The notes under the pieces are model-generated. The model saw nothing but the letters and a program-made list of their open reading frames with translations, made no database searches and was not told where the DNA came from. Below are positions 19,336 through 42,604 of a stretch of 64,000 bases of DNA, piece after piece. This stretch comes from Leucoraja ocellata. Its lineage: Eukaryota. Positions within the stretch are counted from its first letter, which is position 1; every line of letters begins with the position of its first letter. The translations under genes and the position numbers were made by a program. Where the stretch lies: contig JAWMAR010000020.1 in NCBI GenBank assembly GCA_036785375.1, positions 7,316,001 to 7,380,000 on the forward strand. Reading direction: 5' to 3'.

Positions 19336-19351
19336 GTTATCTTGTGTATTT

Positions 19352-20729: not shown

Positions 20730-21049
20730 CTTTCAGAACAAGTGAATGACTCGTGTTGGTATTCAATGCATCAGCTGTGCTTGTCCACCCTATCTACAAC
20801 TAATGGGGGGCAGCCCAACAACTGTATAGAATGGTGTGTGTGTGCACACACATTCATCGGCACCTGCTTACTGCCACACCGAATGAGGCCATTTGACCCA
20901 TCGGGTCCATACTCCCTCCCAGCAGAGCAATCCCCACTGGTCCTAGTCCACCTCCTCTCGTTGCCCTGGGTCCATGCAGCTTTACCCTCTGTTGATCATT
21001 TATTCCCAGTTTATTCACCCAGCTACACAATAGAGGCAATATACATCGG

Positions 21050-22520: not shown

Positions 22521-23161
22521 AACACGCGGGTTGGAGATAAAGCTGAATAAACAAGTTCAGAATCAGAGGGTATGTGTTCATATTCACTCAGCACGCTGGG
22601 CACTCCCCTGCACCAGGATAACACTGCTGATTCCCAGAGAAGGGAGTGTGAAGGACAGAAGATAACAACGGCTAGTGTAACACTTTCTCGTGCCTTATCC
22701 AAAAACAATGAATTATCACCATCCAGTGAATGACGAGACCTCTGGCAGATAAATCCAGCCACACAGATTGGAACAGTTTGCAACACAAGTTATTGCTGAT
22801 AGTGCTGGCACTGATGCTACAGTTGTTAGTGATAGCCATGGGAACTATGTTGGCAAGGCCACAGGAGTCATCTCTGCTTTCTAAAAGTATCACGGGATCT
22901 TTCCCATCCATTCAAACCTCCAGCCAAGACTTTTGTTGAACTCATCTGAAAACTCACATCTGTAACGTTTGCAAAGCCCAGCCTCGACTGATCGCGATTG
23001 AGACAAAGATTGTGGGTTGAGGAGATGTTGACACCACCACTTGACTTACTTTCTCTCAGAGAAAGATTGGAGTCACTTCCAAAGGAGGAGATCACACAAT
23101 CTTTATCATTATCCGGCAGTGAAACGCTGCCAGGCGGTGCACAGATCGGAGCAACACAGGA

Positions 23162-23311
23162 CAATAGACAATTGGTGCAGGAGTAGGCCATTCGGCCCTT
23201 CGAGCCAGCACCTCCATTCATTGCTATCATAGCTGATCGTACACATTCAGTACCCAGTTCCTGCCTTCTCACCATATCCCCTGACTCCGCTATCTTTAAG
23301 AGCCCTATCTA
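23162..23311 (-). mobile_element. 150-bp CR1 3' tail insertion
   Basis: tagatagggctcttaaagatagcggagtcaggg...ctattgt on the minus strand. Confidence 0.85.
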
Positions 23312-23834
23312 TGGCAAGGTTCTGAAGGTGGAAGAAAGGGAGTGGGAGAAGTTTGGGTGAAGGACTGTTGCAAGAAGTGAGGCAGGAAAAGCAGGGCTAG
23401 AGACTGGATGGATGGTCAGGGTTGGGAGAGGAGGGTTGGGGGGGGGGGGGGGGGGTGTCAAGGCTCCAGCATTAGAATGCAGTGATAGTTCAGTGTTGAC
23501 AGTCCACCTGCTCAAGTACCTGGAACCATTTTTCATGAAAGCTCTTTCCCACTGCCTCACTCCCCTCCCCTGTGACGAGTGGACTATGCTGTGCTTTTCC
23601 AGCCCACGGAAAACCCAACTCGCAGGGAGCGCAATCCGCACGTTTATGGAGACTTTGGAAAAGCATTGGAACGACTTCCTCACGCAAACAGGAATGGCAG
23701 CGGTCACGGAAGCAGACGGTCTGCAGACTGGGAACTGCTCTGGCATACACAACGTCACTTGATGAAACGACGGGGACACAAGAGATGCTGCAATCTGGAG
23801 CAAACAACAAACAGCTGGAGGACCTCAGCAGGTT

Positions 23835-24090
23835 CATAAGTTCTAGGAGCAGAATTCGGCCGTTTGACCCATCGAGTCAAGAATCTGTCAATCTCCGCAT
23901 TAAAAATATCCATTGACATGGCCTCCACAGCTGTCTGTGGCAATGAATTCCACAGATTCACCACCCTCTGACTAAAACAATTCCTCCTCATCTCCCTTCT
24001 AAAGGTACATCCCTTAATTCTGAGGCTATGGCCTCTGGTCCTAGACTGTGCCACTAGTGGAAACATTCTCTCCACATCCACTCTATGATG
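23835..24090 (-). mobile_element. CR1 3' fragment nested in a Penelope-derived repeat
   Basis: RTRGHSLRIKG...FSQRVVNLWNSLP. Confidence 0.85.
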
Positions 24091-24585
24091 GAGCAGCATC
24101 TATGGGAAGGAGGGGGGGGGGGCTCCCTGATAGTGCTTTTGGAATAACATTGGCCTAGGTGTCTGTGGTATCAATTACTGAAGTGACTCAACTGTGCAAA
24201 CCTCTGGATACAGAGACATAGGCTACCTTAAAACAGGGTTTTAAATCAAATATATATATACACGGAAATTAGTTATGGCCATTGGGAACTTTAATGTATA
24301 TCAAACAATAAAATATAAAATATATAAACTAAAGGAGAACCACTGGCAGAAAAAAAAGAGAAAATGGCTTATTGCTACATTGAGCCTAGAAGGCATGGGT
24401 GATAATAACCAGGGTTTGTCTGTGTAAAGGATACTTGGACCTATAACAGCACCTTGTCAGTTACGGTCACCTGTAGACAAGGTATTGCTGCTGGTGCGGC
24501 TGTGAAACTGTTACAGTGTGTGTGACAGCCAGGCTTAAGCACCAGTGTGAGAGAGTGTGTGAGCTGCCACAGTACAAAGTCCTAC

Positions 24586-24705
24586 CTGTATCGTCAGAGA
24601 CGCTGGGCCTGGGTGATCGCATGACATCCGAGCTGTACATCAGGAAATTCTCGTACTCATCGTGTGCCTCGGCGTCAATGATGGGAATATCTGGGATGAT
24701 AGGAA
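24586..24705 (-). CDS. ITGB4: Integrin beta-4 connecting-segment exon
   Basis: 120 nt, phase 1/1; [40 protein letters not shown]. Confidence 0.96.
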
Positions 24706-24769
24706 CTGTGGAGGACAGAAAGGCAATTGTATGGAGCCCCAACAACGGCACACTCACCGACAACGCCGG

Positions 24770-25013
24770 TCCACCGAGAGCACGCCGGCCCGTGATTATC
24801 CTCTACCCTAGCACTCTCCCACACACTAGGGACAATTTACAATTTTACCAAAGCCAATGAACCTACAAACCTGTACGCTTTTGGAGTGTGAGAGGAAACC
24901 GGAGCACCGGGAGAAAACCCTGAAGGTCACAGGGAGAATGTACAAACTCTGTACAGACAGCACCCGTAGACAGGATCAAACCTGGTCTCTGGTGCTGTAA
25001 GGCAGCAACTCTA
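24770..25013 (-). mobile_element. V-SINE (HE1-like), partial
   Basis: Same consensus. Confidence 0.82.
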
Positions 25014-25484
25014 AATTTATAATGCGCCATTATAAATCTATCAGAGCGATGCCATCAATCCCATTCACCTACTCACTTCCCCGTACCCACCCTCTCCTAC
25101 TCCCTGCCAACAATCTCCCCGACACTGACATCCACGGTGCTGTGACCGGAGGCTTGTCATCCCGATCCATGTGGGCAAGGGAGCCCCTCCCTGCACTAAC
25201 TGGGAAAAAGGAGGTCCGTTCTCCTCTCATCACCTATTTGCAAGTCTCTGGGTAAGAATACAGTATCTGGGGCATCCCAAGTGCTGACATTGTCTAAGGA
25301 CCCACATCAAACTCTCAAACACTATCTCAAATTGACCCGGGACCACCTGGTAACAGTGTGACCTGACCCAAGCCGTGTCTCACATTGACCCAGGGTGACC
25401 AGCTAATCGTGTGAGCCCCATTAAACTCCCAGGTGCTTGTGGCTCTGGACTGGGATCTGCCATCCTCACAAGGGTCTCACTCAC

Positions 25485-25667
25485 TGGACATCGGTCGTTT
25501 TGGTTGCGTCGACAGGTTCATTGTGGCTTCTCGAGGGGGACCCCAGCCAGCCCCGTTCCTGGCCCGCACTGCGTAGCGATACGGCTGCTCCTCCTTCAGG
25601 TTCTCGATCATCACCATCCTCTTCTTCGGCTTGTTGATCTTCGCCATCTTTTTTGGTCCAATCGGCT
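25485..25667 (-). CDS. ITGB4: Integrin beta-4 FnIII-2, second exon
   Basis: 183 nt, phase 1/1; [61 protein letters not shown]. Confidence 0.96.
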
Positions 25668-25980
25668 CTGTGAGCGACAGGAGGGGGGGAAAGCAAAACT
25701 ATCGGCGACTGGAAGGCACCGCCCGCGTCTTGGCCCGAGGCCAGGCGCGGGTTCCTCTCCCTCCCCGTAACATCCAACGTCCGACACAAGCCGGTAAAAC
25801 ACAGAGTGACCACTGGACACAAGCACATGGTCGAGGAACTCTGCTGGCCCACTGAACACCAACGCAGGGAGGTTCAATACTGGATCTTGTGCTCACAGCA
25901 ACAGTGCCAGTGTTTCACTGTGGGTTGCTATAGAGACGCTGTCAGGCCCCTGTTGGGTTAGGGCGGTGCTGGAGAACATG

Positions 25981-26283
25981 GTTTAGTTTAGTTTCAACTT
26001 ACAGCACGGGAACAGGCCCTTCGGCCCATCGAGTCCGCGCCGACCTGCAATTCCCATACACTAGCACTATCCTACATACTAGGGACAATTTACTATTTAC
26101 AGAAGACAATTAACCTACAAACTTGTACGTCTTTAGAATGTGGGAGGAAACCGGAGCCAGTGGAGAAAATCCACGCGGTCACGGGGAGAACGTACAAACT
26201 CCGTACAGACAGCACCCGTAGTCAGGATCGAACCCGGGTCTCTGGTGCTGTAAGCAGCAACTCTACCGCTGTGTCACCGTGCA
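25981..26283 (-). mobile_element. V-SINE (HE1-like)
   Basis: Same consensus with (gttta)n tail. Confidence 0.88.
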
Positions 26284-26364
26284 CCATAGTGTCTGGGTAG
26301 AGGACAAGGTTGGGACAGGCTGTGAAGGAGGGAAGGGTTGTCGCCAGGTCTGACAGCCACTCAC

Positions 26365-26502
26365 GGTTTTCGTCGGTCACCACGGTGTAGCTCACTTCAT
26401 ACTCCACAATCTCCCCGTTGGCCTCCGACGGCTCAGCCCAGCTCAGCTGTGTCACCGTGGGTGAAAGGACGTTGAACGCCAATCGACCCGGCTCATTAGG
26501 TA
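26365..26502 (-). CDS. ITGB4: Integrin beta-4 FnIII-2, first exon
   Basis: 138 nt, phase 1/1; [46 protein letters not shown]. Confidence 0.96.
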
Positions 26503-26569
26503 CTGAAAGGAGAGCACAAAGACCCGGCATTAGATCTCCTTGCAGCCTCACAACCCATCATTGTATCTT

Positions 26570-27130
26570 ATATGTATATGTGAACAACTTGGGCATTAAT
26601 TGTAGATGGGTTGGGGTGGCACGTTTAACAGACGACACAAACATCGATGCAGTTGTGGGGAGTAAGGAAGGCTGTCAAAGTATACAGCGGGATATCGATT
26701 AGTTCGAGATATGACAGGTGGTGTTTAATCTGAGCGTTTAAGTGTGAAATGTTACACTTTAGGAAGTCAAATGTAAGGGCAAAGTGTACAGTTAATGGCA
26801 GGACCCTCAACAGCTTTAACATACAGTGAGATCTTGAGCTCCAAGCCCAGAGCTCCCAGAAACTTGCAAAACAACTGAACAGAGTGGTAAAGAAGGCCTA
26901 TGGTATGCTGGCCTTCATCAGTCAGGACATTGAGTACTAGAATCAAATTGCCATGTTGCAGTTTTATAAACTCTGGACAGACATGGAGGCTTTGGAGAGG
27001 GTGTAGAAGTGGGTTATCAGAATACTGCCTGTATTAGGGGGAATTAGCTATGAGATGTTGGACAATCTTGGATTGTTTTCTCTGGAACATTGGAGGTTGA
27101 GGAGAGACTTGATAGAAGTATACAAAATTA
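26570..27130 (+). mobile_element. CR1 RT fragment, degenerate
   Basis: TDDTNI, LGLFSLEHWRLRRDLIEVYK remnants. Confidence 0.75.
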
Positions 27131-27227
27131 GAAGCATGGAAACAGAGATGAAACAAGACCTTTGGCCCATCTCATCCATGCCGCCTCATCTAAACGACTC
27201 CCTTTTGCCCACGTTTAACCATATAAA

Positions 27228-30027
27228 TATAACCATATAACAATTACAGCACAGAAACAGGCCATCTCGGCCCTACAAGTCCGTGCCGAACAATTATTTT
27301 CCCTTAGTCCCACCTGCCTGCACTCATTCCATAACCCTCCATTCCCTTCTCATCCATATGCCTATCCAATTTATTTTTAAATGATACCAACGAACCTGCC
27401 TCCACCACTTCCACTGGAAGCTCATTCCACACCGCTACCACTCTCTGAGTAAAGAAGTTCCCCCTCATGTTACCCTAAACTTTTGTCCCTTAATTCTCAA
27501 GTCATGTCCTCTTGTTTGAATCTTTCCTATTCTCAAAGGGAAAAGCTTGTCCACATCAACTCTGTCTATCCCTCTCATCATTTTAAAGACCTCTATCAAG
27601 TCCCCCCCTTAACCTTCTGTGCTCCAGAGAATAAAGACCTAACTTATTCAACCTTTCTCTGTAACTTAGTTGTTGAGACCCAGGCAACATTCTAGTAAAT
27701 CTCCTCTGTACTCTCTCTATTTTGTTGACATCTTTCCTATAATTGGGGACCAAAATTGTACACCATACTCCAGATTTGGTCTCACCAATGCTTTGTACAA
27801 TTTTAATATTACATCCAAGCTTCTATACTCAATGCTCTGATTTATAAAGTCTAGCATACCAAAAGCTTTATTTACCACCCTATCTATAAGAGATTCCACC
27901 TTCAAGGAACTATGCACGGTTATTCCCAGATCTGTCTGTTCAACTGCATTCTTCAATTCCCTACCATTTACCATGTACGTCCTATTTTGATTTGTCCTGC
28001 CAAGGTGCAGCACCTCACATTTATCAGCATTAAACTCCATCTGCCATCTTTCAGCCCATTCTTCCAAATGGCCTAAATAACTCTGTAGACTTTGGAAATC
28101 CTCTTCATTATCCACAACACCCCCTATCTTGGTATCATCTGCATACTTACTAATCCAATTTACCACACCTTCATCACTAGGGGCGCTGCACTGGCAGCAG
28201 CCTCTACCTACAGCCTGTCTGTAATTTCTATCTTTTTTTAAATTTTCAGTTAGTCTAAAGTCTGTTTTAGGGGGAAACTTTTACTTCTCTATGTGGGGGC
28301 GGGGGGCAGGGTAAGGGGGAAACCGTTTCCCAGTCTCTTCCTGGCGGGGACGCGAATATTTCTCTGAGTCGCGTCCTCGCCCCCCACCTCGCGGCCTACT
28401 AGCTGGATCGGAGCGGCCTTTCCTGCCGGGGACCGGGAACCGGACCAGGGCTGCTACAGCGGCGGCGCAGCGCTGGAGTCACCGCGGAGCGGGCGATGCC
28501 TATCTGGGTCACCGTTTGGAGCTCAGGAGCGTTGGGCCGTTGCTCCAACATCGTGGAGCTCTGGTGCGGAGAGCTTCCAACGCGGACGGCGCTGACCGCC
28601 ATCGTGGAGTTCTGGGGCGCCTTGCAGAGGGCCTACAGCAGCAATCTCCACCCGGCGCGGCCTACGGACATTGGAAGCCGCCGACTCCGGTAGGAGGGGG
28701 CCGACTCTGGTGTCCACGCCGCTGAGGACGTCCCGCAGCCCCGACGTCGGACTTGTATCACCCCGGCGAGCGGTCCTGGACATCGGGCCGCCTGTAGCTG
28801 CAACTGCGGAGGGCTTGGGGAGGCCCTGACCACAGGGAACAGTGGAGGAAGAAGACTGACTTTGGTGCCTTCCCACACAGTGGGAAACTTTGATTCTGCT
28901 GCGTGGGGATGTTTTGTGTTAAATTCCATAGGGTGTTGAGTCCTGTTTATTTTTATTGTATGGCTGTATGGGAATTCATTTCACTGTGCCATCTGGCACA
29001 TGTGACAATTAAATCTATCTTGAATCTTGAATCAGATCATTGATGTTGATGACAAACAATAAAGGACCCAACACAGATCCCTGAGGCACCCCACTAGTCA
29101 CCTGCCTCCAACCCGACAAACAGCCATCCACCATTACCCTCTGGTGTCTCCCATTCAGCCACTGTTGAATCCATCTTGCTACTCCTGCGTTTATACCCAA
29201 CAGTTGAACCTTCTTAACCAACCTTCCATGAGGAACCTTGTCAAAGGCCTTACTAAAGTCCATCTAGACAACATCCACAGCTTTACCCTCATCAATTTCC
29301 CTAGTAACCTCTTCAAAAAATTCAAGAAGATTAGTCAAACATGACCTTCCAGGCACAAATCCATGTTGACTGTTCCTAATCAGACCCTGTTTATCCAGAT
29401 GCGTATATATATTATCTCTAAGTATCTTTTCCATTAATTTGCCCACCACTGAAGTCAAACTAACAGGTCTATAATTGCTAGGTTTACTCTTAGAACCCTT
29501 TTTAAACAATGGAACAACATGCGCAGTACGCCAATCCTCGGGGACTATTCCCGTTTCTAATGACATTTGAAATATTTCTGTCATAGCCCCGGCTATTTCT
29601 ACACTAACTTCCCTCAATGTCCTAGAGAATATCCTGTCAGGACCTGGAGACTTATCCACTTTTATATTTTTCAAAAGTGTCAGTACTTCTTTTACTTTGA
29701 AACTCATAATATCCATAGCTACTCTACTTGTTTCCCTTACCTCACATAATTTAATATCCGTCTCCTTGGTGAATACCGAAGAAAAGAAATTGTTCAATAT
29801 CTCCCCCATCTCTTTTGGCTCTGCAGATAGCTGTCCACTCTGTCTCTCCAATGGACCAATTTTATCCCTCGTTATCCATTTGCTATTAATATAGCTGTAG
29901 AAACCCTTTGGATTTACTTTCAGCTTAATTGCCAAAGCAACCTCATATCTTCTTTTAGCTTTTCTAATTTCTTTCTTAAGATTCTTTTTACATTCCTTAT
30001 ACTCCTCAAGCACCTCATTTACTTCAC
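27228..30027 (-). mobile_element. Young CR1 LINE ORF2 (RT) plus tail, split by an ~855-bp insert at 28176-29033
   Basis: [40 protein letters not shown] and LVRPNLEY motifs in consecutive ORFs. Confidence 0.95.
28176..29033 (+). mobile_element. GC/CpG-rich non-autonomous retroelement with Rex-like tail
   Basis: Interrupts CR1 RT between INDL and DEGV codons; ends tttcactgtgcc...cacatgtgacaattaaa then (tcttgaa)2. Confidence 0.7.
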
Positions 30028-30729
30028 GTTTGGCCCAGTTCCCTCTAAACCTTTCCTATTAATGTACCTGTCCAAGTGTCACTTAAATGTCCTAACCCCC
30101 ACCATTTCTTCTATAAGTTTACCTGCTCCACTCACTGTGTGAAAATGTTGCTCCACTGCTCCCTTTCAAATCTTTCCCTTCTCTCCTTAAACCCCTGAAC
30201 CTCTAGTCATAGAATCAGACAGCACGGAAACAGGCCCTTCCGCCCAACTCGACCATTGCAATCAAGATGCCCCATCTAAACTAGCCCTATTTGCCTGTAT
30301 TTGGCCCATATCCTTCTAAACCTAGTTTTCGATTCTCCATCGCTGGGAAAAAAAGACTCTGGTTATTCATCTCATCTATGCCCTTTGTAATTGTATAAAC
30401 CTATGCAAGGTCACTACTGTGTGGACCATACCGGTCATAGTTCAATTGGGAAAACATTGAAGCCTTCTCTGCTGCAAAGCATTTCTCTATTGCAATAGTT
30501 CAATGAAACGTGAGGTTTTCAGGAACGCTAACTAAAGTGTTGTGGCAGAGATACCTGTAGGCAGAACGATATCAATGAGGGATAGGACTAAGCTGCTTGG
30601 CCCGTACACTTGCCCGACCGTTAACAGTATTTATAAAGGTGCCCCCCAGTAATTCACTGGCCGTGAGGGTGTGAGGCCTCTGGTGGCCGTGCGTGCAAGG
30701 TACTGTGTCAGAGTGCAGCGGCAACTCAC

Positions 30730-30907
30730 GGTCTTCCGGTGTGCGGCAGCTGACGGTCTCGGAGCGGGGGCCGGCGCCCAGGGCGTTGTAGGCAAAGATG
30801 TTCATCTCGTAGTCGCAGTAGGGGTACAGGTCTGGGAGCTCAGCGGACGGTGTGGTGGTGGTCACGACCTGCGAGGAGTTCTCGTCCCCTTCGATCCAGT
30901 AGGTCAC
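30730..30907 (-). CDS. ITGB4: Integrin beta-4 FnIII-1, second exon (B2)
   Basis: 178 nt, phase 0/1; VTYWIEGDENSSQVVTTTTPSAELPDLYPYCDYEMNIFAYNALGAGPRSETVSCRTPED. Confidence 0.95.
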
Positions 30908-31320
30908 CTGTGTGGGAGGGAGTCCGAGTTACCTCACCGTCCACGGGCAACACCCTGCGGTACTGCCGGGAATGTTCACCAGCAAGGCTGTTCTGGCTCT
31001 CGCTCCCCTGCCGTTCTCTCCCGCACAACCCCTGCCTCTCATCTACCACTCTCAGCAATCGTGAGAATGTCACTGCCTAATATCTTGAATTATCTTTCTC
31101 GTTTATCTTTGCAGTATTTTTACTTTTCACCGCCTTGCAGAATTTATGTGTAATTCATGTGTAAATTACATCTCTAATTGGAATTTGAAGCCCTGGTTCA
31201 AATGTGAGCCAATGAAATGCTTTGTCACATTCAAAGCTGTCCTTCATGTCTGAATCGAAACTGAGCATTGCTGGTAACCCCTTTATCCATCAACAGTGTT
31301 TCCATCCGCACCCTAAAACC

Positions 31321-31590
31321 ATTTAGTTTTGTTTTGGTGTAGAAACTGGCCCTTAGGCCCACTAAGCCCGCACTGCCCAGCAATCACCCTTGCACTAGTT
31401 TTATCCTGCACACTAGGGACAATTCACAAACCCACACATCTTTGGAATGTAGGAGAAAACCGGAGAACGCGGAGAAAACCCATGCAGGTCACGGGGAGAA
31501 AGTACAAACACCATACAGTCAGTAGTCAGGATTGAACCCGGGTCTCTGGTGCTGTAAGGCAGCAACTCTACCACAGCGCCACCATGCCTT
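31321..31590 (-). mobile_element. V-SINE (HE1-like)
   Basis: Same consensus. Confidence 0.82.
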
Positions 31591-31877
31591 CCAGAGGACA
31601 AATTGACAACAGCATCATTGAGTTCAAAGGTACACAAAAATGCTGGAGAAACTCAGCGGGTGCAGCAGCATCTATGGAGCGAAGGAAATAGGCGACGTTT
31701 CGGGCCGAAACCCCTTCTTCAGACTGGCGAAGGAAATAGGCAACGTTTCGGGCCTATTTCCTAGGCAACTATTTCCATTGAGTTAAAAACTGGCCATGCA
31801 CAAGAGCATTTCCACCATTGCCTGGTTCAGTTTAGTTTCTACCCAATAGCCTTGCTGCTGGTGAAGTGACCTGTTAC

Positions 31878-32014
31878 CTTGTATCCGGTTGGTCGACCCG
31901 GGGGCGGGATCCAGTTGACGCGGAGCTTCTTGCTGTTGATTGGCTGCACCTTGACGTTGGAGGGTGGGGCGTCGATGGAGGTCAAACCCTGCTTGAGTGG
32001 AATAGTTTCATTGG
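31878..32014 (-). CDS. ITGB4: Integrin beta-4 FnIII-1, first exon (A2)
   Basis: ttgcag|...|gtaaca, 137 nt, phase 1/0; ANETIPLKQGLTSIDAPPSNVKVQPINSKKLRVNWIPPPGRPTGYK. Confidence 0.92.
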
Positions 32015-32464
32015 CTGCAAGATCAGAGAGCAGCTCACGTTAGCAAAACACCGCCAGCTTTATGGTGCATCCAATGACGTTGGGAAGATGGAGGGGAGTC
32101 GGGATCCTAACCCCCCTCCCCACACAGTGCGGCCTGACCTCCCCCCCCCCCCCTACACAACACTGAACCCTCCCCCTCCCCCACATAGAGGGGCCCAAAC
32201 ACCCTCTGCCAAACTGCAGGGATCCTGCATAATGGAGCCCGGACCCTTCCTCAACAACATGGAGAGCCCCCTCTCCCCTCCCATGCACTATCGAGCTCCG
32301 ACTCCCCTCCCATGTATTGTGAAACCCCCACACACTGTAGAGGCCCAACCCCACCCCTCCCCCCCACTGTGTCTCCCCTCCTCCCACACTGTGGATCCTC
32401 CCCCCACCGTGAAGCTTCCCCTCCTCCCCCCCCCCCACGGTGGGGCCCCTCCCCCCGCACTCAC

Positions 32465-32642
32465 CACTGTCGAGCGTGCGGCAGCGCACGGTGTTGGAGC
32501 AGGGCCCAGCGCCCAGCGTGTTGTAGGCCGACACCTCCATCGCGTAGTCACAGCTGGGCTGGAGGTCGGTGAGCTCGACCGAGGTGTTCCTCGTCTCAAC
32601 CGTCTTAGAGGAGAACTCATCGTCTTCAGGCCAGTACTTCAG
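32465..32642 (-). CDS. ITGB4: Integrin beta-4 extra FnIII-1 copy, second exon (B1)
   Basis: ctgcag|...|gtgagt, 178 nt, phase 0/1; LKYWPEDDEFSSKTVETRNTSVELTDLQPSCDYAMEVSAYNTLGAGPCSNTVRCRTLDS. Confidence 0.9.
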
Positions 32643-32784
32643 CTGCAGAAACAATATTGGCCCGTCACTCCCATCGCCCATCGTTACCCCAGAATTATTT
32701 ATCCCCCTCACTGGGCGTATCTTCCCTGTCGTGACCATCCCGTTAGAACAGCGCTGCTTAATGACTAATCAACTCTTTCATCCT

Positions 32785-33155
32785 GGGCCTCCTCCACTCA
32801 GAATGAGGTGAAACACAAATTGGAGGAATGGCACCTCATATTTCACTTGGGCCGCTTACAACCCAGCGGTATGAATATTCATTTCTCTAATTTCCAGTAA
32901 CCCTTGCATTCACTCGCTCTCCATCCTTCCACCACCCTAGTCATCCTGCTAGCCTCCCTTCGTCATCACCTCCACAACCAACAATGGACCATTGTGGGCT
33001 CCTTGGCCATCAGTGCCAGTTTTGATTTGTTCTGTGCCTTTTCATACCTCTGGTTTCCCTCTCCCCTGACTCACAGTCCGAAGATGGGTCTTGACCCGAA
33101 ACATCACCAATTCCTTTTCTCCAGAGAACCCATTGAGTTATTCCAGCATTCCGTG
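32785..33155 (+). mobile_element. Penelope-like element 3' fragment
   Basis: KLEEWHLIFHLGRLQPSGMNIHFSNFQ* (GIY-YIG C-terminus) followed by pseudo-LTR with degenerate hammerhead motif. Confidence 0.78.
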
Positions 33156-33199
33156 CCACTCTTTAGTTTAATTTACGACAGATACAGCGTGGGAGCAGG

Positions 33200-33387
33200 C
33201 CTTTCTCACAGAGAGTGGTGAGTCTGTGGAATTCTCTGCCTCAGAGGGCAGTGGAGGCAGGTTCTCTGGATGCTTTCAAGAGAGAGCTAGATAGCGATCT
33301 TAAAAGTAGCGGAGTCAGGGGATACGGGGAGAAGGCAGGAACGGGGTACTGATTGGGGATGATCAGCCATGATCACATTGAATGGCG
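33200..33387 (+). mobile_element. CR1 3' tail fragment abutting the exon A1 donor
   Basis: cagagagtggtgagtctgtggaattc...gatcagccatgatcacattgaatggcg. Confidence 0.85.
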
Positions 33388-33392
33388 CTCAC

Positions 33393-33529
33393 CTTATAAC
33401 CCGTCACATCCCCCTGGGCTGGGCTCCAGTTCACACGGATCCTCTTGCTGTCAATTGGCTGTGGTTTCACGTTGAGGGGCGGCGAATCAATTGGGAACAG
33501 CGATTGGTTGAGATCCATCCTATGCCTTA
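33393..33529 (-). CDS. ITGB4: Integrin beta-4 extra FnIII-1 copy, first exon (A1)
   Basis: cacag|...|gtgagc, 137 nt, phase 1/0; VRHRMDLNQSLFPIDSPPLNVKPQPIDSKRIRVNWSPAQGDVTGYK. Confidence 0.87.
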
Positions 33530-33837
33530 CTGTGATATTAACCACAAGAACATATTAACAGAAGAACATGGAACATACAACAAAGAACAACACGGCACCA
33601 CAACAAGCCCTTTGGCCCACAATGTCTGTGCCGGACATAATGCCAAGACAATCTTTTATCTGCCTGCACTTATCCATACCCCCCCCCCCCCCCTCCCCCC
33701 ATCCCCGCACATCCAAGTCACTTAAAGTCCACGCTCGTATCTGCCTTAACCACTACCCCTGACAGCACATTCCAGGCACTGACCATCCTCTGTGTAAAAA
33801 CAATACATGCTCCGCACATCTCCTTTAAACTTTACCC

Positions 33838-34074
33838 CTGGCCCTCTCTCTCTACCTCCTCCCTCTCCCGCTCTAGCCACGCCTGCGCAGTTGGGGGCTA
33901 TGCATGAGTGGATAGGGCGAGGGATGGCGTAAATGGAGCGAATTAATAATATTAATATAATTTCAAGAAGTGGGGGGGGGGGTGTGGTGTGTGTGTGTGG
34001 CGGATGGTTAGTGTATGTGACTCCATAGGCTGCGCGTTGAGGGGACGGGACCCAACGGGTCCCACTTGGTCTAG
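33838..34074 (+). mobile_element. Helitron-like non-autonomous fragment (3' end)
   Basis: Subterminal hairpin gggaccc-aac-gggtccc (34047-34063), CTAG terminus (34071-34074) followed by T. Confidence 0.6.
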
Positions 34075-34596
34075 TCTCCTTTAAACTTTACCCATCTCAC
34101 CTTAAAGCTGTGCCCTCTAGTATTAGATTTGTCCACTCTGTGAAACAGGTCCTGACTATCGAATCCATCTACACAAGTTCATAAGTTGCAGGAGCAGAAT
34201 AGGGCCATTCGGCCCATCAAGTCTACACCGCTGTTCAATCATGGCTGATCCATCTTTCCCTCTCAACCACATTCTCCTGCTTTTCCTCATAACCCCCGAC
34301 ACCCTTACTAATCACAAATCTGTCAATCTCCACCTTAAAAATATCCATTGACTTGGCCTCCACAGCCGTCTGTGGTAATGGATTCCACAGATTCACCACA
34401 GATTCATCTGTGCCTCTCATAATTATATACACCTCTAACAGGTCTCCCTGCAACCGCCGGCATTGTCTGTCGAACCTCTTCAGCTAATCCAGGCATCGTT
34501 CTGGTCAACAAGAGTCAGTTGTTCCGTTATAGAAGGATCATCCAGGGTGCCCTGCAGTCTACGATGTGTCCATTCATTTACTGATCTATATTTGTA

Positions 34597-35153
34597 NNNN
34601 NNNNNNNNNNNNNNNNNNNNNNNNNNNNNNNNNNNNNNNNNNNNNNNNNNNNNNNNNNNNNNNNNNNNNNNNNNNNNNNNNNNNNNNNNNNNNNNNNNNN
34701 NNNNNNNNNNNNNNNNNNNNNNNNNNNNNNNNNNNNNNNNNNNNNNNNNNNNNNNNNNNNNNNNNNNNNNNNNNNNNNNNNNNNNNNNNNNNNNNNNNNN
34801 NNNNNNNNNNNNNNNNNNNNNNNNNNNNNNNNNNNNNNNNNNNNNNNNNNNNNNNNNNNNNNNNNNNNNNNNNNNNNNNNNNNNNNNNNNNNNNNNNNNN
34901 NNNNNNNNNNNNNNNNNNNNNNNNNNNNNNNNNNNNNNNNNNNNNNNNNNNNNNNNNNNNNNNNNNNNNNNNNNNNNNNNNNNNNNNNNNNNNNNNNNNN
35001 NNNNNNNNNNNNNNNNNNNNNNNNNNNNNNNNNNNNNNNNNNNNNNNNNNNNNNNNNNNNNNNNNNNNNNNNNNNNNNNNNNNNNNNNNNNNNNNNNNNN
35101 NNNNNNNNNNNNNNNNNNNNNNNNNNNNNNNNNNNNNNNNNNNNNNNNNNNNN
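34597..35153. other. Assembly gap (557 N)
   Basis: N run in the intron between Calx-beta exon 2 and FnIII exon A1. Confidence 0.99.
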
Positions 35154-35304
35154 ATGCAAGTAGAAAACGGAATTCTCCGGAAGCAATGCCTGCAACAGGG
35201 TCCTGTTTTCATGTGACACAGAATGATGAGGTGAAGCAGGAGATGGGTAGAAGGAACTGCAGCTGCTGGTGAAGGTGTTGCCTTCCTTGTGCGGGTGGCG
35301 CTGG

Positions 35305-35448
35305 TGGGAGAGGTGGGGGGAGAGGTGGGGGGGAGAGGTGGGGGTAGAGGTGGGGGGAGAGGTGGGGGGAGAGGTGGGGGGAGAGGTGGGGGGAGAGGTG
35401 GGGGGAGAGGTGGGGGGAGAGGTGGTGGGAGAGGTGGGGGGAGAGGTG
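35305..35448. repeat. 12-bp G-rich tandem repeat (ggggggagaggt)n
   Basis: About 12 copies visible. Confidence 0.95.
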
Positions 35449-35496
35449 ACGGAGGGAATGGGAAAGGGAGGGAAAGATGACGAAAGAGGAACCCAC

Positions 35497-35704
35497 CGTT
35501 GTCATCGCCGATGGTGACGGTGGTGCGGGGGAACTTGCCCAGCTTCGCACCATTACGGGGTTTGTACAACTCCAGCAGGAACTGTTTGATCTGCTCGTTG
35601 CCCAGGAGGGAGTCCACCTCCGTCTGCTCCAGCAGTTTGACGGGAATCTCCTTGCGTGTCTCCCCAGGGAGGAAGGTGACTTCGTTTTCCATTGAAATGT
35701 AATC
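35497..35704 (-). CDS. ITGB4: Integrin beta-4 Calx-beta exon 2
   Basis: 208 nt, phase 0/1; DYISMENEVTFLPGETRKEIPVKLLEQTEVDSLL...GAKLGKFPRTTVTIGDDN. Confidence 0.95.
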
Positions 35705-36227
35705 CTGCAGTGGTCAAAACAAAATGCAATGGATATATCTCCGTGGGAAGAACAAGGACAAGCACAGGAGTCAATGGTTTATATACGAGTAACTGCAGGT
35801 GCTAGTTCACACACAGGGACACAAAGTACTGGAGTAAATCAGCAGGTCAGGCAACATCTCCGGAGAACATGGAGAGTTTAGTTTAGTTTAGTTTTAGTGT
35901 CTCATGTCCGGTTAAAAAAAAGTGTACAGATACACGATAAATGGAATAAGGTCATGACTGGGTTTAAATTCCTGGAACTGCCTCCACAACATTTTTGTGG
36001 GAGCGCCTTCACCAGAGGATCTTCCGGGGTCAACTTGGGATGGGCAATAAATGCTGCCCCACGGCCTGTACAGTAAACGAACAAATGGCCGCTTCTCTGG
36101 TGCTTAACGTACAGTATCGACCATTCAGTGGATAGCCAGCTGGTTTGTGCTCCTGGCTGCCCCTCGCGCTGTCAGTGGTGGGAGCTGTACTCTCTCGGAC
36201 TTCCCTAGCTGGTCTTTAGACTGAAAT

Positions 36228-36520
36228 GATTTTTGATTTTAGAGATATATATCGCGGAAACAGGCCCTTTGACCCACAGAGCCCGCGCAGACCACTAGCA
36301 CTATCCTGCTTATTGGGGACAATTTACAATTTTACCAAGCTAATTAACCAACAAACCTGTACGTCTTTGGAGTGTGGGAGGACACCGGAGCACTCCCGAA
36401 GAAGATGCACGCGGTCACGGGGAGAACATACAAACTCCGTGCAGATAGTGCCCGTAAGTCAGGATCGAACCTGGGTCTATGGTGCTGTAAGGCAGCAACT
36501 CTACCGCTGTGCCACCGTGC
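36228..36520 (-). mobile_element. V-SINE (HE1-like)
   Basis: Same consensus. Confidence 0.86.
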
Positions 36521-36568
36521 CCCCCCCCCCCCCCCCCCCGCCCCATGGTCACCAGGTGTGAGCTATAC

Positions 36569-36717
36569 CGTGCCGTCCTTGGCGGTGAGGTCTCGTGTTT
36601 TGTAGGAGACCTGGGTGCGTCCGTCCTCGGTGATTTCACGAAGCAGAGCGATGTTGGCCACCTTGTCCTGCCGCTGGCACGTGTAGGAAGGCTGCAGGAA
36701 GCTGATGCTGCTCTTGG
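36569..36717 (-). CDS. ITGB4: Integrin beta-4 Calx-beta exon 1
   Basis: 149 nt, phase 1/0, donor gtatag; AKSSISFLQPSYTCQRQDKVANIALLREITEDGRTQVSYKTRDLTAKDGT. Confidence 0.92.
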
Positions 36718-37551
36718 CTGCCGACAGGAGGAGAGAGAGAGAGACTTCAGTGAACGGCGAGATAGTAACGGTCGGACACAAGAGACTGCACACACTGCGA
36801 TCATGAGCAAAACCACAAAGCACTGGAGGAACTCAGCAAGCCGGGCAGCATCTGCGGAGGGAAATGGCCGGGTGCCTTCTTCAGCTTGACTGAGCAGAGG
36901 GGAGAACGCTGAGGGGAAAAGGTGAGGGGAAAAAACTGGCAAGTGATAGGCGGATACAGGTGAGGAGGGGAGACTGGCAGATGGGGGACCTAGATGGTGA
37001 CACGGACCAGAGGTGAAAGAGAGACAAGTGCGTCAGATCAAGGACGAAGAAAAGGAGTGAAACGTAAACCGAGTGGATTGATAGTGGGAATGGAATGGGA
37101 AGGAAAGGGGAGGGGAGGAAAGATGCAAATACCAAAGAAGCTCGGAGCTTGGGAAACATCTGAGTAAGCTTGTGGTGGACGGAAACGCCAAGGCTTGTGA
37201 TGATGTCACCTCGGGAGAGAGATGGGTGGGGGGGGGGTGGGGGGAATGAGAGAGATGGGGGAGGAGCATAGAGGGGACAGAGGCAGTGGGTTGAGAGGGA
37301 AGGGTGGGGTAGGTACTGCTGGCTACATGATGTGACATTGAGACCCTTATCCTGGTGAGTCCGGGTGAGGAGATAGAGCTGCCCTCAGACCCGGTCACTC
37401 CCTGGGGACGTGACCCTCGATGGAGACAAGTGCACCGGTGTGATGTCAGGAGCTGGCGGGCAGAGTGGGGGGGGGGGGGTGATCGACGGGAGCGGAGGGG
37501 CTCCGGCCGGGCCAGGACGCGACGGGCAGTCGCCGGTTCCAAACCCCTTAC

Positions 37552-37731
37552 CGGCCTCTTTGATGATGGTGATGTCGACGAAGCGCTTGGTGATCTCCGC
37601 CGTTCCCAGCGGCACGTCCACCGCCTCCACCAGCAGCCGCTTCTCATCGTCGTCCTCGTCCTTCACAAAGAGCGGCACCCGCACGTCCACCAGCTCCACC
37701 CCATCCTGGAACTCTACCTGGCCCCGGGCAC
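37552..37731 (-). CDS. ITGB4: Integrin beta-4 cytoplasmic exon
   Basis: 180 nt, phase 1/1; [43 protein letters not shown]...ITIIKEA. Confidence 0.96.
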
Positions 37732-38460
37732 CTGCCAACAGCACGGCAAAGGTTGTCAATGGAAGCCCGGCACAGACGCCTCCGCCCCCACTGCTCACGC
37801 CCGGCGGCCCCACAAATCGGCAAAGCCAATCGTCAGAGCTATTGCAGGCCCTGCCCACCCCAACCCCCCCCCCCCTGAAGCGATCCATCCCACCTGTCCA
37901 CACCACCCTCCAGTGATCCACTCCATAACCCCTCGTGATCCACTTCACACAATCCATGGTGATCCATCCCAACACAATCCATGATGATCCACTCTTACAC
38001 AATCCAGGGAGATCCATCCCACACTAACACTAGCCCTGGTGGTCCAATAATACAAGTTGGGCATCTCACGTTGATCAACACCCGCATCATTAAACCCAAT
38101 TTGAAATGGAGCTTCAGTAGTAGAAGGTAAAGAGAAGCTCAAAGCAGGAAAGGCATGAAGACAGTTCTTGTGGGCCAGACGTCATATCCTTGGCTTCTGA
38201 ACCACGGCCACCGGTGGGTGACGGATTAGCCAGAGACAGAAGTGAAGGAGAGCAGATATTTGAGAGGATTTCCGCACCGGAGGAGATTGCGGAGATAGGT
38301 CGAGAACACAAATCCCACCCATTACTCTACTCCAATCCCAAGAGATCCACTTCATACCAGTGACCCCAACCCCAAGTGATGAACCGGATGCAGCCCACCG
38401 CCAACACCCTGCTGCCTGTACAGACAGAGCAGAGAGACCGACTCCCTGATCCCCACTCAC

Positions 38461-38609
38461 CTCGATCAGACGCCACTGTGTAATAGCCCGGGACGACTTT
38501 CAGATCGTTGAAGGTTCCCATAGTGACCTGGTGTTCGGTGAGCTTCATGATCTCTGGTTCTGCTGAACGGGGCGCTGTCAGCTGAGTGTCAATGATGGTC
38601 AGGTCCGAC
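38461..38609 (-). CDS. ITGB4: Integrin beta-4 cytoplasmic exon
   Basis: 149 nt, phase 2/1; SDLTIIDTQLTAPRSAEPEIMKLTEHQV...DLKVVPGYYTVASDR. Confidence 0.95.
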
Positions 38610-39035
38610 CTGGGACGGAGAAACACCTACATTACCAAACCCAGCCTGCCGCTCCGTGCGAGCACTGGTAAAGCCTTCGCCTGTCGGAGGAAGGGTCCCG
38701 ACCCAAAACGTCACCCATCCGTTTCCCCCAGAGATTCTGCCTGGCCCGCTGAGTTACTCCAGCACTTTGTGTCTATCTTTGGTATAAACCAGCATCTGCA
38801 GTTCCTTCCCATGCACAATAAATTGTTGGCAGAGAAGGCGAAAGGGAAAGGTTTCACAGAGTCATACAGTGTGGAACCAAGCCCTTCAGTCCAACTGGCT
38901 CACACTGAATTTCACATCCCAACTACATTAGTGCCACATGCCTGCATTTAGCCCCTATCCTTCTAAACCTGCACTATCCATGCATCTGTCTAAATGTTTC
39001 TTAAACGCTGCAATAGTACTTGCCTTAACTACCTA

Positions 39036-39337
39036 CGGCACCTTGACGCAGCAGTAGAGTTGCTGCCCCACAGCGCAAGATACCCGTGTTTGATCGTGAC
39101 TATGGATGCTGTCTGTGTGGAGTGTGCACGTTCTACCTGTGACTGCGTGGGTTTTCTCCGGGTGCTCCGATTTCCTCCCAAACTCCAAGAAGTACAGGTT
39201 TGTAGGTTAATTGGCTTCAGTAAAATTGTACATTTGTCTTAGTGTGTAAGGTAGTGCTGGTGTACGGGGTGATCGTGGCTGGGGGATTTCGGGTGGGACG
39301 AAGGGCCTGTTTCTGCGCTGTATCTCTAAAGTCTAAA
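39036..39337 (+). mobile_element. V-SINE (HE1-like)
   Basis: Head, V-domain and tail gggcctgtttctgcgctgtatctctaaagtctaaa. Confidence 0.85.
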
Positions 39338-39364
39338 GGCTAGTGCTGCCAACTGAGATAGCAG

Positions 39365-39905
39365 TTCTAAAATTCTCCAACTTTAGGGAACTAACCTACA
39401 AACACTCCTCCCCCTCCCCCCTCTCTTCCCTGTGCCCCCATCTGCATGGACACCCATTTCTCCCTTTCCTCTCCACCCCCCCACCCCCATGTCCTTTTCC
39501 AACTAGATATTCCTTCCTCTGGCTTCACATTTCACACCCTTTCTACTGTTATTTCCTTACCTCACTTTTTACCTTTACATCCTTGGTCTTTGTCCACCTA
39601 TCTGCCAATTCAAAACCCCCCTCACCTGTATCCACCTATAACTTTGTCCTGCTTGTATCTCTCTTCCAGCTTTGTCCCCCAACTCCACTCAGCCCTGACC
39701 CAAAACGTCACCTAACCATGTTCTCCAGACATGCTGCCTGACCCGCTGAGTCACTCCAGCACTTTGTGTCTTTTTTTTTTAAAACCAGCACCCGTCTGAT
39801 GAAGGTCTCGACCCGAAACATCACCTATTCCTTTTCTCCAGAGATGCTGCCTGACCCGCTGAGTTTTTGCAGCATTTTGTGTCTATCTGCTGATCCTTCT
39901 GTCTA
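39365..39905 (+). mobile_element. Penelope-derived repeat with tandem terminal units
   Basis: Two successive cccaaaacgtcacc / cccgaaacatcacc...gatgctgcctgacccgctgag units. Confidence 0.75.
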
Positions 39906-40138
39906 CGAGGTACTAAACGTCCGGATGTGACAATGGGGATAGAAATGCACTTGAGATGAGGAAATTAAGACACAAATATCTGAAGATGGTTTGACATAAA
40001 CCTCCCCGGCAGAGAAGGCGGGAGGGATGGATTGGGAAGAACAGTGCAGGATGGGGTACGGAGACTGGCGATTACAGGCAGATTGAGAGCACGGATATCA
40101 TGGAAGCTGCTGGTGGGCTAGGTCACAAAATCACCTAC

Positions 40139-40162
40139 CTCTTTCCTGCATGTGGCTGGGTC
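40139..40162 (-). CDS. ITGB4: Integrin beta-4 24-nt microexon
   Basis: ttttag|G ACC CAG CCA CAT GCA GGA AAG AG|gtaggt, phase 2/2; (R)TQPHAGK(R) vs human RQQPNAGKK (recalled). Confidence 0.88.
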
Positions 40163-40264
40163 CTAAAACAAAAGGAAAGCGATATTTAGCAAGAGGCAGT
40201 TTAAGTTCTTAATTGTCAACGATACAGCTTTCAACAAATCACCGACATTAGAGGCAGAATGAAG

Positions 40265-40286
40265 TGAGAGAGAGGGAGAGAGAGAG

Positions 40287-40343
<57 letters not shown>

Positions 40344-40631
40344 CCCCGTGAGGTGGGTGTTGGGCAGAGGAAGGTCAAGTGGAGGGGAGAGGGAGAAGGG
40401 GAGAGAGACAGGGAGAGGAGCAGAATGCAGGAGGCAGACAAGGAAAGAGGGAGGAGAAGAGGAGACAGAGAAGAGGAGACAGAGGCGAGAGGAGAGATTG
40501 CTTACGATGGAGGTGCAGAGGGGCAAAGATAATGGGGACGGAGAAAGAGAGAGGGCAAGATGGCACAAGACAGGGGGCACCATTCAGGGGGGGCATCAGC
40601 CAAGGGGGTGTGAGGCAGATTGAGAGTAAGG

Positions 40632-40680
<49 letters not shown>

Positions 40681-40811
40681 TGAGAGAGGCAGTAGAGGGA
40701 GAGAGACAGGGAACAAGAGAAGAGGGATTGAGATTGAGCAAAAGCGTGTGATAAAAAGGGAGCAAAGCAGAGAGAGTGAGATGAGAGAAAGCAGGAGAGA
40801 AACTGATGGAA

Positions 40812-40844
<33 letters not shown>

Positions 40845-40870
40845 CAGGGGAGAGGGTGAAGGAGAGGCTG
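40265..40870. repeat. (GA)n microsatellites and purine-rich tract
   Basis: Near-pure GA runs at about 40265-40340 and 40634-40676. Confidence 0.95.
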
Positions 40871-40910
40871 AGAGGGACGTCACAGATGGGTGACACTGGG
40901 ACATCCTTAC

Positions 40911-40969
40911 CTGAATTTCGTTTTCTGGACAGTCTGAGCCCCTGGAATATGTTTATACACTTCGTTGAG
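40911..40969 (-). CDS. ITGB4: Integrin beta-4 cytoplasmic exon
   Basis: 59 nt, phase 0/2; LNEVYKHIPGAQTVQKTKF(R). Confidence 0.93.
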
Positions 40970-41174
40970 CTGGAAAGATAAAGACACGCCTAGGTCAGTG
41001 GTCATCGATAGCATTGAACAAAGGATTGCCAATACATGTGTACCTATCCCCCACGTTCCTCAGTATGGGTCAGCCTCCCCGAGTCACCACCCACACCACT
41101 ACCCTGCCTCTCCTCTGCACACACCCTGATACATATGAACAACCTCACCAGACACAAACTGCTCTGCGCACTGG

Positions 41175-41645
41175 GGAAAATAATTCACCTTTCTGTCCTG
41201 GGCCTCGTCCACTGTCAGGGTTGAGGCCACACGCAAATTGGAGCAGCAGCACCTCATATTTCGCTTGGGCAACTTACAACCCAGCAGTATGATCGTTGAT
41301 TTCTCTAATTTCAAGTAATTCCTACATTTCGTTTCTACCTCCCCGTCCCCGTCCCCGTCCCTTCCCCCACCCTAGCTGTCCTACCAGTTCCACTGTTAGC
41401 ATCCTTGTAGCCCTGACGTTAGCACACCTTCCCCAGCTAATGATGGGCCATTGTGGACTTCACCCTTCCTGAGGTCATCTGTGGCCGGCCCTGTTCCGGC
41501 CTTCTCTATCTTTCAGTCTGAAGAAGGGCTCGGACCCGAAACATCGCCTATTCCTTTTCTCCAGAGATGCTGCCTGTCCCGCGGAGTTAGTCCAGTATTT
41601 TGTGTCCACCTAGTATGCCAGCACCTGCAGTTCCTTCCTACACAA
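41175..41645 (+). mobile_element. Penelope-like element 3' fragment
   Basis: EATRKLEQQHLIFRLGNLQPSSMIVDFSNFK* followed by ctgaagaagggctcggacccgaaacatc. Confidence 0.82.
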
Positions 41646-42490
41646 TTGAACTATCTGCACACTATTTCAGGAAACCTTCGTGGATACACATGATAAATTC
41701 CACCCTGTCCAAGCGCTTGCACGGAGGATGTTCCAGTCAATATTGGAGAACATTGACTGGGACGCAACAAAACATGCAACCATAACGTTAACATGCAACA
41801 AAAGCTTTTCACTGTACCTCGGTACCCGTGACAATAAAGGGTCACGTACTGCGACAACCCTGTTGCTTTTACATCTTTCCATAATCTGTCGACATATCTA
41901 TTCCTCCATCTTCTGCTGGCTATTGAAGGCCTATTGTACAAGCCCATAGGAATGAAGGTAACTATCTTATTTCTGAGCTCAACTCCTATTGCCTTGTTGG
42001 ATGAATCCTCCAGCATGTCCTCTCTTAGAATCATAGAGTCATAGAGTGTAGAAACAGGCCCTTCGCCTCAACCTGGCCACACCAACCAACATATCCCATC
42101 TACACTAGTCCCACCAGCCTGCGTTTGGCCCATATCTCTCTAAACCTGTCCTATCCCAAGTACCTGGCTGATTATTACTTCAACATTGCAATAGTTCTTT
42201 CCTCAACTACCTCCTCCGGCAGCTCGTTCCATAAACACACCAGCCTTTGTATGAAAAAGTTCCTATTAAATCTTTCCCCCTTCACCTTAGACCTATGTCC
42301 TCTGGTTCTCGATTCACACTCCGGGCAAGACACTTCCTCTTTACCATTCATGAAACATGGAAACCCTGCAACGTTTCTGAGCTGCCATTCCTGAGTCACT
42401 CCTAGCCAAGTCTGTGCAATGGCCACACCATCACGTTCCTGGGCACTGAGCCAGGCACTAACCTCGCCCCCATTACCCATAATATTCCTG
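41645..42490 (-). mobile_element. Old CR1 endonuclease-region remnants with nested CR1 and Rex tails
   Basis: AIAQTWL and AIGVELRNK..MGLYNRP remnants. Confidence 0.65.
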
Positions 42491-42500
42491 GCACGCTTAC

Positions 42501-42604
42501 GTTTTCATCCGCCAGGAGCCGAAGCTGCTCAGACTCCCTGGAGTCCGGGTTGATCAGCTCGTTGTTGAACACTCGGGCTGCCCGCAGCGACAGGTTGTAG
42601 AGAA
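42501..42604 (-). CDS. ITGB4: Integrin beta-4 cytoplasmic exon
   Basis: 104 nt, phase 1/0; VLYNLSLRAARVFNNELINPDSRESEQLRLLADEN. Confidence 0.92.

What the first reader, a model, noticed from the sequence alone, without database searches (positions are those of the whole stretch)
30730..33529. Tandem duplication of the FnIII-1 exon pair: a beta4 integrin with five FnIII domains
Seen: four exons of 137, 178, 137 and 178 nt with phases 1/0, 0/1, 1/0, 0/1. All are open, have canonical splice sites and align without indels; hand alignment gives 25/46 and 33/59 identical residues (about 55%). Known: mammalian beta4 has Calx-beta plus four FnIII domains, and FnIII-1/2 with the connecting segment bind the plectin actin-binding domain. 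Inference: this is an old duplication retained under selection (too diverged for an assembly artefact), adding a 105-aa domain between Calx-beta and the plectin-binding pair. The copy next to FnIII-2 keeps the human-like LYPYCDYEM and NWxPPxG motifs, whereas the upstream copy has LQPSCDYAM and NWSPAQG, suggesting a spacer or new binding role.
Basis: partly seen in the sequence, partly recalled or inferred. Interest (0 to 1): 0.85.

Follow-up and report, generated by a model that had tools for sequence, protein, structure and literature searches.

The report
Sharks' extra beta4 integrin domain
The skin-anchoring receptor integrin beta4 of this skate, like that of most sharks, rays and a chimaera, carries a spliced, conserved extra copy of its first fibronectin domain, sitting where bony fishes and hagfish carry a second Calx-beta domain, so it likely serves as a swappable spacer and the textbook human layout is likely a shortened form.

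Summary
Observation confirmed. Four intact exons on the minus strand of a skate ITGB4 gene encode two tandem copies of FnIII-1, here called 1a and 1b. RNA contigs and reads splice both copies into one transcript. The duplicate is not skate-specific: 17 of 22 named cartilaginous fish species have it, including the chimaera Callorhinchus. Five lamniform and carcharhiniform sharks keep only 1b. Copy 1b with FnIII-2 is predicted to rebuild the human plectin-binding pair (RMSD about 1 Å), and the plectin salt-bridge residues are kept. Copy 1a is predicted to fold, sits between flexible linkers, and has lost motifs that 1b shares with bony vertebrates. Unexpectedly, the same slot holds a second Calx-beta domain in ray-finned fishes and lungfish, and a fragmentary hagfish model has that domain too. 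Tetrapods and one lamprey model have an empty slot. Best reading: an ancient ~105-110-residue spacer slot, probably Calx-beta at first, refilled by an FnIII duplicate in cartilaginous fishes and emptied several times. Function is untested. The sequences are already in RefSeq models; ten literature searches found no description of either architecture.

The parts
35497..35704 (-). ITGB4 exon ending the single Calx-beta domain; phase-1 donor at 35497
   Evidence: tblastn, profile hit, splice edges
33393..33529 (-). Exon A1: linker plus first strands of the extra domain FnIII-1a
   Evidence: its 3' end is the loose end joined to B1 in RNA contigs X2 and X13
32465..32642 (-). Exon B1: rest of FnIII-1a
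   Evidence: covered by contigs and reads with zero depth in the flanking intron
31878..32014 (-). Exon A2: linker plus first strands of FnIII-1b, the human-like copy
   Evidence: joint 32465/32014 in contigs X1, X2 and in 3 raw RNA reads of X24
30730..30907 (-). Exon B2: rest of FnIII-1b with the LYPYCDYEM motif
   Evidence: its start is the loose end joined to A2 in 4 of 4 runs
26363..26502 (-). First FnIII-2 exon (R1225- and E1242-equivalent residues); lower bound approximate
25486..25668 (-). Second FnIII-2 exon and start of connecting segment (R1281- and E1286-equivalent residues); bounds from tblastn
5858..62988 (-). ITGB4 gene, residues ~326 to the C-terminus, spread over the window
   Evidence: tblastn of four skate ITGB4 proteins

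Best explanation
This is a spliced tandem duplicate of the FnIII-1 exon pair of integrin beta4, shared by most cartilaginous fishes, and the extra domain likely works as a folded spacer between Calx-beta and the plectin-binding FnIII-1b/FnIII-2 pair. Shown: both copies are spliced in one mRNA; both are conserved; 1b and FnIII-2 keep the human plectin salt-bridge residues; bony fishes carry a second Calx-beta of similar length at the same position. Predicted: 1a folds as a seven-stranded FnIII with flexible linkers on both sides, while 1b and FnIII-2 form the rigid human-type pair. Inferred: the duplication of the phase-1/1 module happened before the shark-ray split, probably before the chimaera split. 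No longer packed on FnIII-2, 1a lost the residues FnIII-1 normally keeps. It holds the plectin site about one domain length (roughly 3.5-4 nm, recalled figure) further along the tail. It fills a slot that held Calx-beta-2 in the vertebrate ancestor. The slot was emptied independently in tetrapods and in lamniform plus carcharhiniform sharks.
For: Splicing: joint 32465/32014 in contigs X1 and X2 (X13 within 3 nt, two mismatches at the edge) and 3 raw RNA reads of X24; loose ends are the A1 end and the B2 start; single contigs of X2 and X13 carry A1-B1-A2-B2. Four Logan ORFs of 1033-1792 aa on contigs of at most 6.7 kb hold both copies. Spread: of 67 chondrichthyan records scored, 48 have two copies, 15 one, 4 are fragments, none has Calx2. 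Tree: 16 elasmobranch 1a rows form one clade (100/99, starred); 16 1b rows plus the five single-domain sharks group at 93/93. AU tests reject the single-domain sharks lying outside the duplication (p 0.024) or with 1a (p 0.014), and their linker resembles exon A2. Selection: dN 0.37, dS 1.09 between copies; dN 0.027, dS 0.087 for B1 against run X13, on only 7 substitutions. Structure: AlphaFold2 gives 1a ten-residue block pLDDT of 82-89 over its core with the same strand pattern as 1b, and pLDDT <50 in both flanking linkers; a domain pair of the model matches human FnIII-1,2 (1QG3) at RMSD 1.0-1.1 Å over 192-193 columns and 59% identity (read as 1b+FnIII-2). R1225, E1242, R1281 and E1286 equivalents are kept (residues named in PMC4353693). 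Nine columns kept in at least 85% of 28 1b and bony-vertebrate rows are changed in 1a, including I1163, G1165, P1179, Y1187, Y1189, E1193 equivalents. Slot: 117 of 120 proteins have Calx1+Calx2+one FnIII-1; the insert folds as Calx-beta (pLDDT 89, TM 0.84 to the beta4 Calx-beta). Distance from Calx1 to the FnIII-2-adjacent domain: median 123 aa in 17 two-copy rows, 134 in bony fishes, 19-25 in single-domain sharks and tetrapods. A hagfish domain groups with Calx2 at 100/100.
Against: No binding, folding or cell experiment exists for either copy. 1a has its own fixed residues (32 invariant columns against 42 in 1b; P and A in 16 of 16 rows, a WPEDD loop in 14 of 16), more than a plain spacer might need. 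The slot is empty in 99 tetrapod proteins, five sharks, a lamprey model and one of four lungfish isoforms, so any spacing benefit is not essential. The losses in sharks and lamprey rest on gene models; their genomes were not searched. The two Callorhinchus copies are unresolved: one shared duplication has support 52/1 and a separate chimaera duplication is not rejected, p-AU 0.489. The hagfish model is fragmentary, lacks Calx1 and FnIII-1, and sits on a long branch. Low pLDDT linkers show uncertainty, not proven flexibility. That the lost residues form the FnIII-2 or plectin face is my inference; the papers listing the contacts were not held.
Confidence: 0.55

Rival explanations
1. FnIII-1a gained its own binding surface, for example for a plakin, a kinase or an adaptor, or for the beta4 tail itself.
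For: Fixed 1a-specific surface changes kept across sharks and rays; a long stem branch for the 1a clade followed by conservation. Beta4 FnIII domains share a core but differ at the surface (PMC4388270, passages).
Against: 1a is the least conserved folded cytoplasmic domain: 71% mean identity against 78% (1b), 81% (Calx), 85-94% (FnIII-2 to 4) in 15 elasmobranch rows. It is missing from five shark species' models. No partner is known.
Confidence: 0.25
2. The duplicate is close to neutral: an in-frame module that is kept because it is always spliced in and must fold, not because it does anything.
For: Phase-1/1 symmetry allows gain and loss without frameshift; repeated losses; 71% conservation equals that of the EGF/tail region, 69%.
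Against: Retained in 17 species from all major chondrichthyan lineages except two orders, with none of the 48 covering models skipping it; a different domain of similar length fills the same slot in bony fishes.
Confidence: 0.15
3. FnIII-1a forms a second plectin actin-binding-domain site and raises avidity.
For: It derives from a domain that is needed for plectin binding (PMC2174221, passages).
Against: Human FnIII-1 alone does not bind the plectin ABD (PMC2174221); the three salt bridges are all in FnIII-2 (PMC4353693), which was not duplicated; 1a lost the conserved FnIII-1 residues.
Confidence: 0.04
4. Assembly artefact or pseudo-exons.
For: None found.
Against: Copies are only 61-65% identical in DNA with no intron similarity; spliced in four runs of four studies; present in 17 species.
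Confidence: 0.01

Closest known systems
Human integrin beta4 (ITGB4) cytodomain; PDB 1QG3, 3F7P, 4Q58, 3FQ4
   Same: Calx-beta, FnIII-1/2 pair, connecting segment, FnIII-3/4; plectin salt-bridge residues; predicted 1b/FnIII-2 geometry within about 1 Å.
   Different: One extra FnIII-1-derived domain of 105 aa between Calx-beta and the pair. Reviews describe only one Calx-beta and four FnIII (PMC4452579, PMC4388270, passages).
Bony-fish ITGB4 (ray-finned fishes, lungfish) and hagfish ITGB4 model
   Same: An extra ~110-aa beta-sandwich right after Calx-beta-1; position in hagfish cannot be fixed because the model lacks Calx1 and FnIII-1.
   Different: The extra domain is a divergent Calx-beta, not an FnIII; lungfish has an isoform that skips it.
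RefSeq models of chondrichthyan ITGB4 (e.g. XP_032900295.1 Amblyraja, XP_067860554.1 Heptranchias, V9K785 Callorhinchus)
   Same: Both copies are already in these automatic models.
   Different: No paper found that points out the architecture.
Lineage-specific Ig super-repeat expansion in elephant shark titin (PMC12241362, abstract and outline only)
   Same: Lengthening of a mechanical linker protein by domain duplication in cartilaginous fishes.
   Different: Different protein; many repeats rather than one slot with two alternative fillers.

Membership tests
Integrin beta4 (ITGB4) | Integrin beta ectodomain (vWA, EGF, tail) plus long cytodomain | tested here: met
   Pfam on the 96-100% identical skate proteins; exons in the window from residue ~326 on; the first 325 residues lie outside the window
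Integrin beta4 (ITGB4) | Calx-beta domain before the FnIII domains | tested here: met
Integrin beta4 (ITGB4) | Exactly four FnIII domains in two pairs (textbook architecture) | tested here: not met
   five fn3 stretches in 6 of 6 proteins; this is the variant feature, orthology is not in doubt
Integrin beta4 (ITGB4) | Plectin-contact residues R1225, E1242, R1281 in FnIII-2 | tested here: met
   alignment to 3F7P; residues from PMC4353693
Integrin beta4 (ITGB4) | Binds plectin and builds hemidesmosomes with alpha6 | not testable with these tools
   needs biochemistry or cells
FnIII domain (PF00041), copy 1a | Profile match and seven-stranded sandwich | tested here: met
   (predicted fold)
beta4 FnIII-1 functional equivalent, copy 1a | Conserved WI.GD and LYPYCDYE motifs and direct junction to FnIII-2 | tested here: not met
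   nine conserved columns changed; followed by a linker and 1b
Calx-beta domain (PF03160), bony-fish insert | Profile and fold match | tested here: met
   Pfam E 4.9e-6 at the cut-off for lungfish but only E 0.059, below cut-off, for Amia; 8 of 8 PDB sequence hits are Calx-beta proteins; Foldseek TM 0.84

The most novel reading that the evidence does not exclude
The ancestral vertebrate beta4 had six cytoplasmic domains with a tandem Calx-beta pair; cartilaginous fishes swapped the second Calx-beta for a duplicated FnIII of the same length, and this slot acts as a ruler that sets how far plectin and keratin filaments sit from the membrane in fish hemidesmosomes, while the human five-domain tail is a secondary reduction.
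Probability: 0.3. Interest if true: 0.7.

Novelty: new variant of a known kind. Interest (0 to 1): 0.5.

Why it matters
Beta4 is the core of the hemidesmosome and a blistering-disease gene, and its tail is described as one Calx-beta plus four FnIII domains. That layout holds for tetrapods but not for most fishes. Two unrelated folds of similar length fill one slot, and the slot was emptied several times. This gives natural variants to test whether tail length or a specific surface matters, and what the beta4 Calx-beta does. It also means human residue numbering and domain maps do not transfer directly to fish models. It is an architecture variant of a known protein, not a new system.

Tried and rejected
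First read-laying over 12.5 kb was swamped by repeat reads and showed no exon joints among the listed rows; the narrower stretch worked. The run search listed no holder on record as RNA; X1, X2 and X13 are guessed RNA, X24 is recorded RNA. A skipping isoform was not seen, but contigs drop rare forms. No remnant of Calx2 in the visible window; 557 N lie in that intron, and the rest of the genome was not searched for Calx2. A whole-protein PDB search showed only ectodomain alignments. The primary structure papers were not held. Ten paper searches found no description of five-FnIII or two-Calx beta4; PMC4030831 (passages) lists zebrafish beta4 at 1893 aa and has no occurrence of 'shark'; subscription papers are mostly outside the library, and supplements were not read (the multi-species alignments S12/S13 of PMC4388270 may bear on prior notice). 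Two look-ups of earlier findings gave nothing. No complex prediction was run: no plectin sequence was at hand and a pass would echo the solved structure. Per-copy dN/dS across species could not be computed, since relatives came as proteins only. The Leucoraja model was left out of the tree because of a two-residue gap in B1; isoform duplicates and most tetrapods were also left out (51 rows kept).

Full report
Observation. The Calx exon ends in phase 1 at 35497 and FnIII-2 begins at 26502, so each A+B pair is an in-frame 315-nt module. The copies share 25/45 and 33/59 residues and 83/137 and 116/178 bases, with no intron similarity. The window holds ITGB4 from about residue 326 to the end. B1 is identical to the Amblyraja radiata model and the region is nearly identical to Leucoraja-like transcripts, so the animal is a skate. 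The genome holds only these two B exons at E<=0.001.

Expression. On 31850-32730, four runs from four studies cover only the two exons and give zero depth in the intron. The joint 32465/32014 appears in contigs of X1 and X2, within 3 nt in X13, and in 3 raw reads of the recorded RNA run X24. Loose ends are the start of B2 (4 of 4 runs) and the end of A1 (X2, X13), so single contigs carry A1-B1-A2-B2. Four Logan ORFs on contigs of at most 6.7 kb run from Calx through both copies. The Calx-A1 joint was seen only there.

Distribution. Of 67 chondrichthyan records scored, 48 have two FnIII-1-like domains, 15 have one and 4 are fragments. Two copies: three skates, five other batoid species, Heptranchias, Pristiophorus, Heterodontus, five carpet sharks and the chimaera Callorhinchus (17 named species). 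One copy: Cetorhinus, Carcharodon, two Scyliorhinus and Mustelus. Among the best 120 hits (of 1092), 99 tetrapod proteins have one; human beta4 is represented by PDB fragments and by the papers.

History. In a 51-row tree of 93 columns, 16 elasmobranch 1a rows are one starred clade; the 1b rows and the five single-domain sharks group at 93/93. AU tests reject the alternatives at p 0.014 and 0.024, and the linker of these sharks resembles exon A2; the groups were named after the tree was seen. So they most likely lost A1+B1, judged from gene models only. The chimaera copies are unresolved: the duplication predates the shark-ray split, and probably but not certainly the chimaera split. Copy-to-copy dN/dS is 0.37/1.09; against run X13, B1 gives 0.027/0.087 and A2 0.030/0.095 on 7 and 6 substitutions. 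1a is 71% conserved across 15 elasmobranch rows, the lowest of the folded cytoplasmic domains.

The slot. Ray-finned fishes and lungfish carry about 110 extra residues at the same place. They are a second Calx-beta: Pfam reaches its cut-off for lungfish but not for Amia, all 8 PDB sequence hits are Calx-beta proteins with beta4's own on top, and the model (pLDDT 89) matches it at TM 0.84. 117 of the 120 listed hits (235 found) have Calx1, Calx2 and one FnIII-1. One of four lungfish isoforms skips it. No chondrichthyan record has it and no remnant is visible in the window, though 557 N lie in that intron. Outgroups came from the representative search: a Lampetra model has one Calx and one FnIII-1; a fragmentary Eptatretus model has a domain scoring 63.7 bits on the Calx2 profile and nothing reportable on Calx1, and it groups with Calx2 at 100/100 on a long branch. 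The simplest reading is an ancestral Calx pair, with Calx2 lost in tetrapods, chondrichthyans and perhaps lamprey. The order of loss and duplication in chondrichthyans is unknown.

Mechanism. Human FnIII-1 does not bind the plectin ABD alone but is needed for binding (PMC2174221, passages); the three salt bridges are in FnIII-2 (PMC4353693, passages and section 13). The skate keeps those residues (human numbering counted by me along the alignment and consistent with four residues named in the paper). AlphaFold2 on a 1033-aa skate fragment (mean pLDDT 62, pTM 0.29, so domain placement overall is not reliable) folds 1a like 1b, with low-confidence linkers on both sides of 1a and none between 1b and FnIII-2. 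A domain pair matches 1QG3 at 1.0-1.1 Å. Nine columns conserved in 1b and bony vertebrates are changed in 1a; the chimaera 1a also lost the two tyrosines of LYPY. I infer that 1b remains the partner of FnIII-2 and that 1a is a tethered spacer (0.55). A new binding surface (0.25) is favoured by 1a's own fixed residues; near-neutral retention (0.15) by the repeated losses; a second plectin site (0.04) is unlikely.

Known and new. Two reviews or structure papers (PMC4452579, PMC4388270; passages) and PMC5909619 (passages) give one Calx-beta and four FnIII. PMC4030831 (passages) compares vertebrate beta integrins without sharks. Ten searches found no report of either fish architecture, within a library that lacks most subscription papers. 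The sequences themselves are in RefSeq and UniRef. Verdict: a real, new variant of a known protein; interest 0.5, mainly for the swappable slot.

Noticed in passing
Proteins P0036, P0043, P0115, P0126, P0133, P0192-P0307, P0312 (not in the window): Bony-fish and hagfish integrin beta4 carry a second, divergent Calx-beta domain; automatic Pfam counts usually show only one.
   Followed up: yes
window 20527-20730, minus strand: An intact cassette exon of about 68-70 codons in the connecting segment, 84% identical to the insert of Pristis isoform X1 and skipped in the Logan ORFs; it may correspond to the 70-aa difference between human 1822- and 1752-aa beta4 (inferred, not aligned).
   Followed up: partly
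P0013 (Leucoraja erinacea RefSeq model), exon B1: The model lacks two residues and misreads a few in B1, while transcript ORFs are intact; probably a genome or model error.
   Followed up: no
window 35300-35460 and 34597-35153: A C-rich tandem low-complexity tract follows the Calx exon, and 557 N lie in the same intron, where Calx2 exons would be expected.
   Followed up: partly
window 57695-59071 and 29267-30055, minus strand: Intronic ORFs of 459 and 263 codons that look like CR1-type LINE reverse transcriptase pieces (the label is recalled, not tested).
   Followed up: no
P0012, P0019, P0025, P0026: A 42-aa stretch of the connecting segment is skipped in isoforms of four species, suggesting conserved alternative splicing near window 13600-13850.
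   Followed up: no
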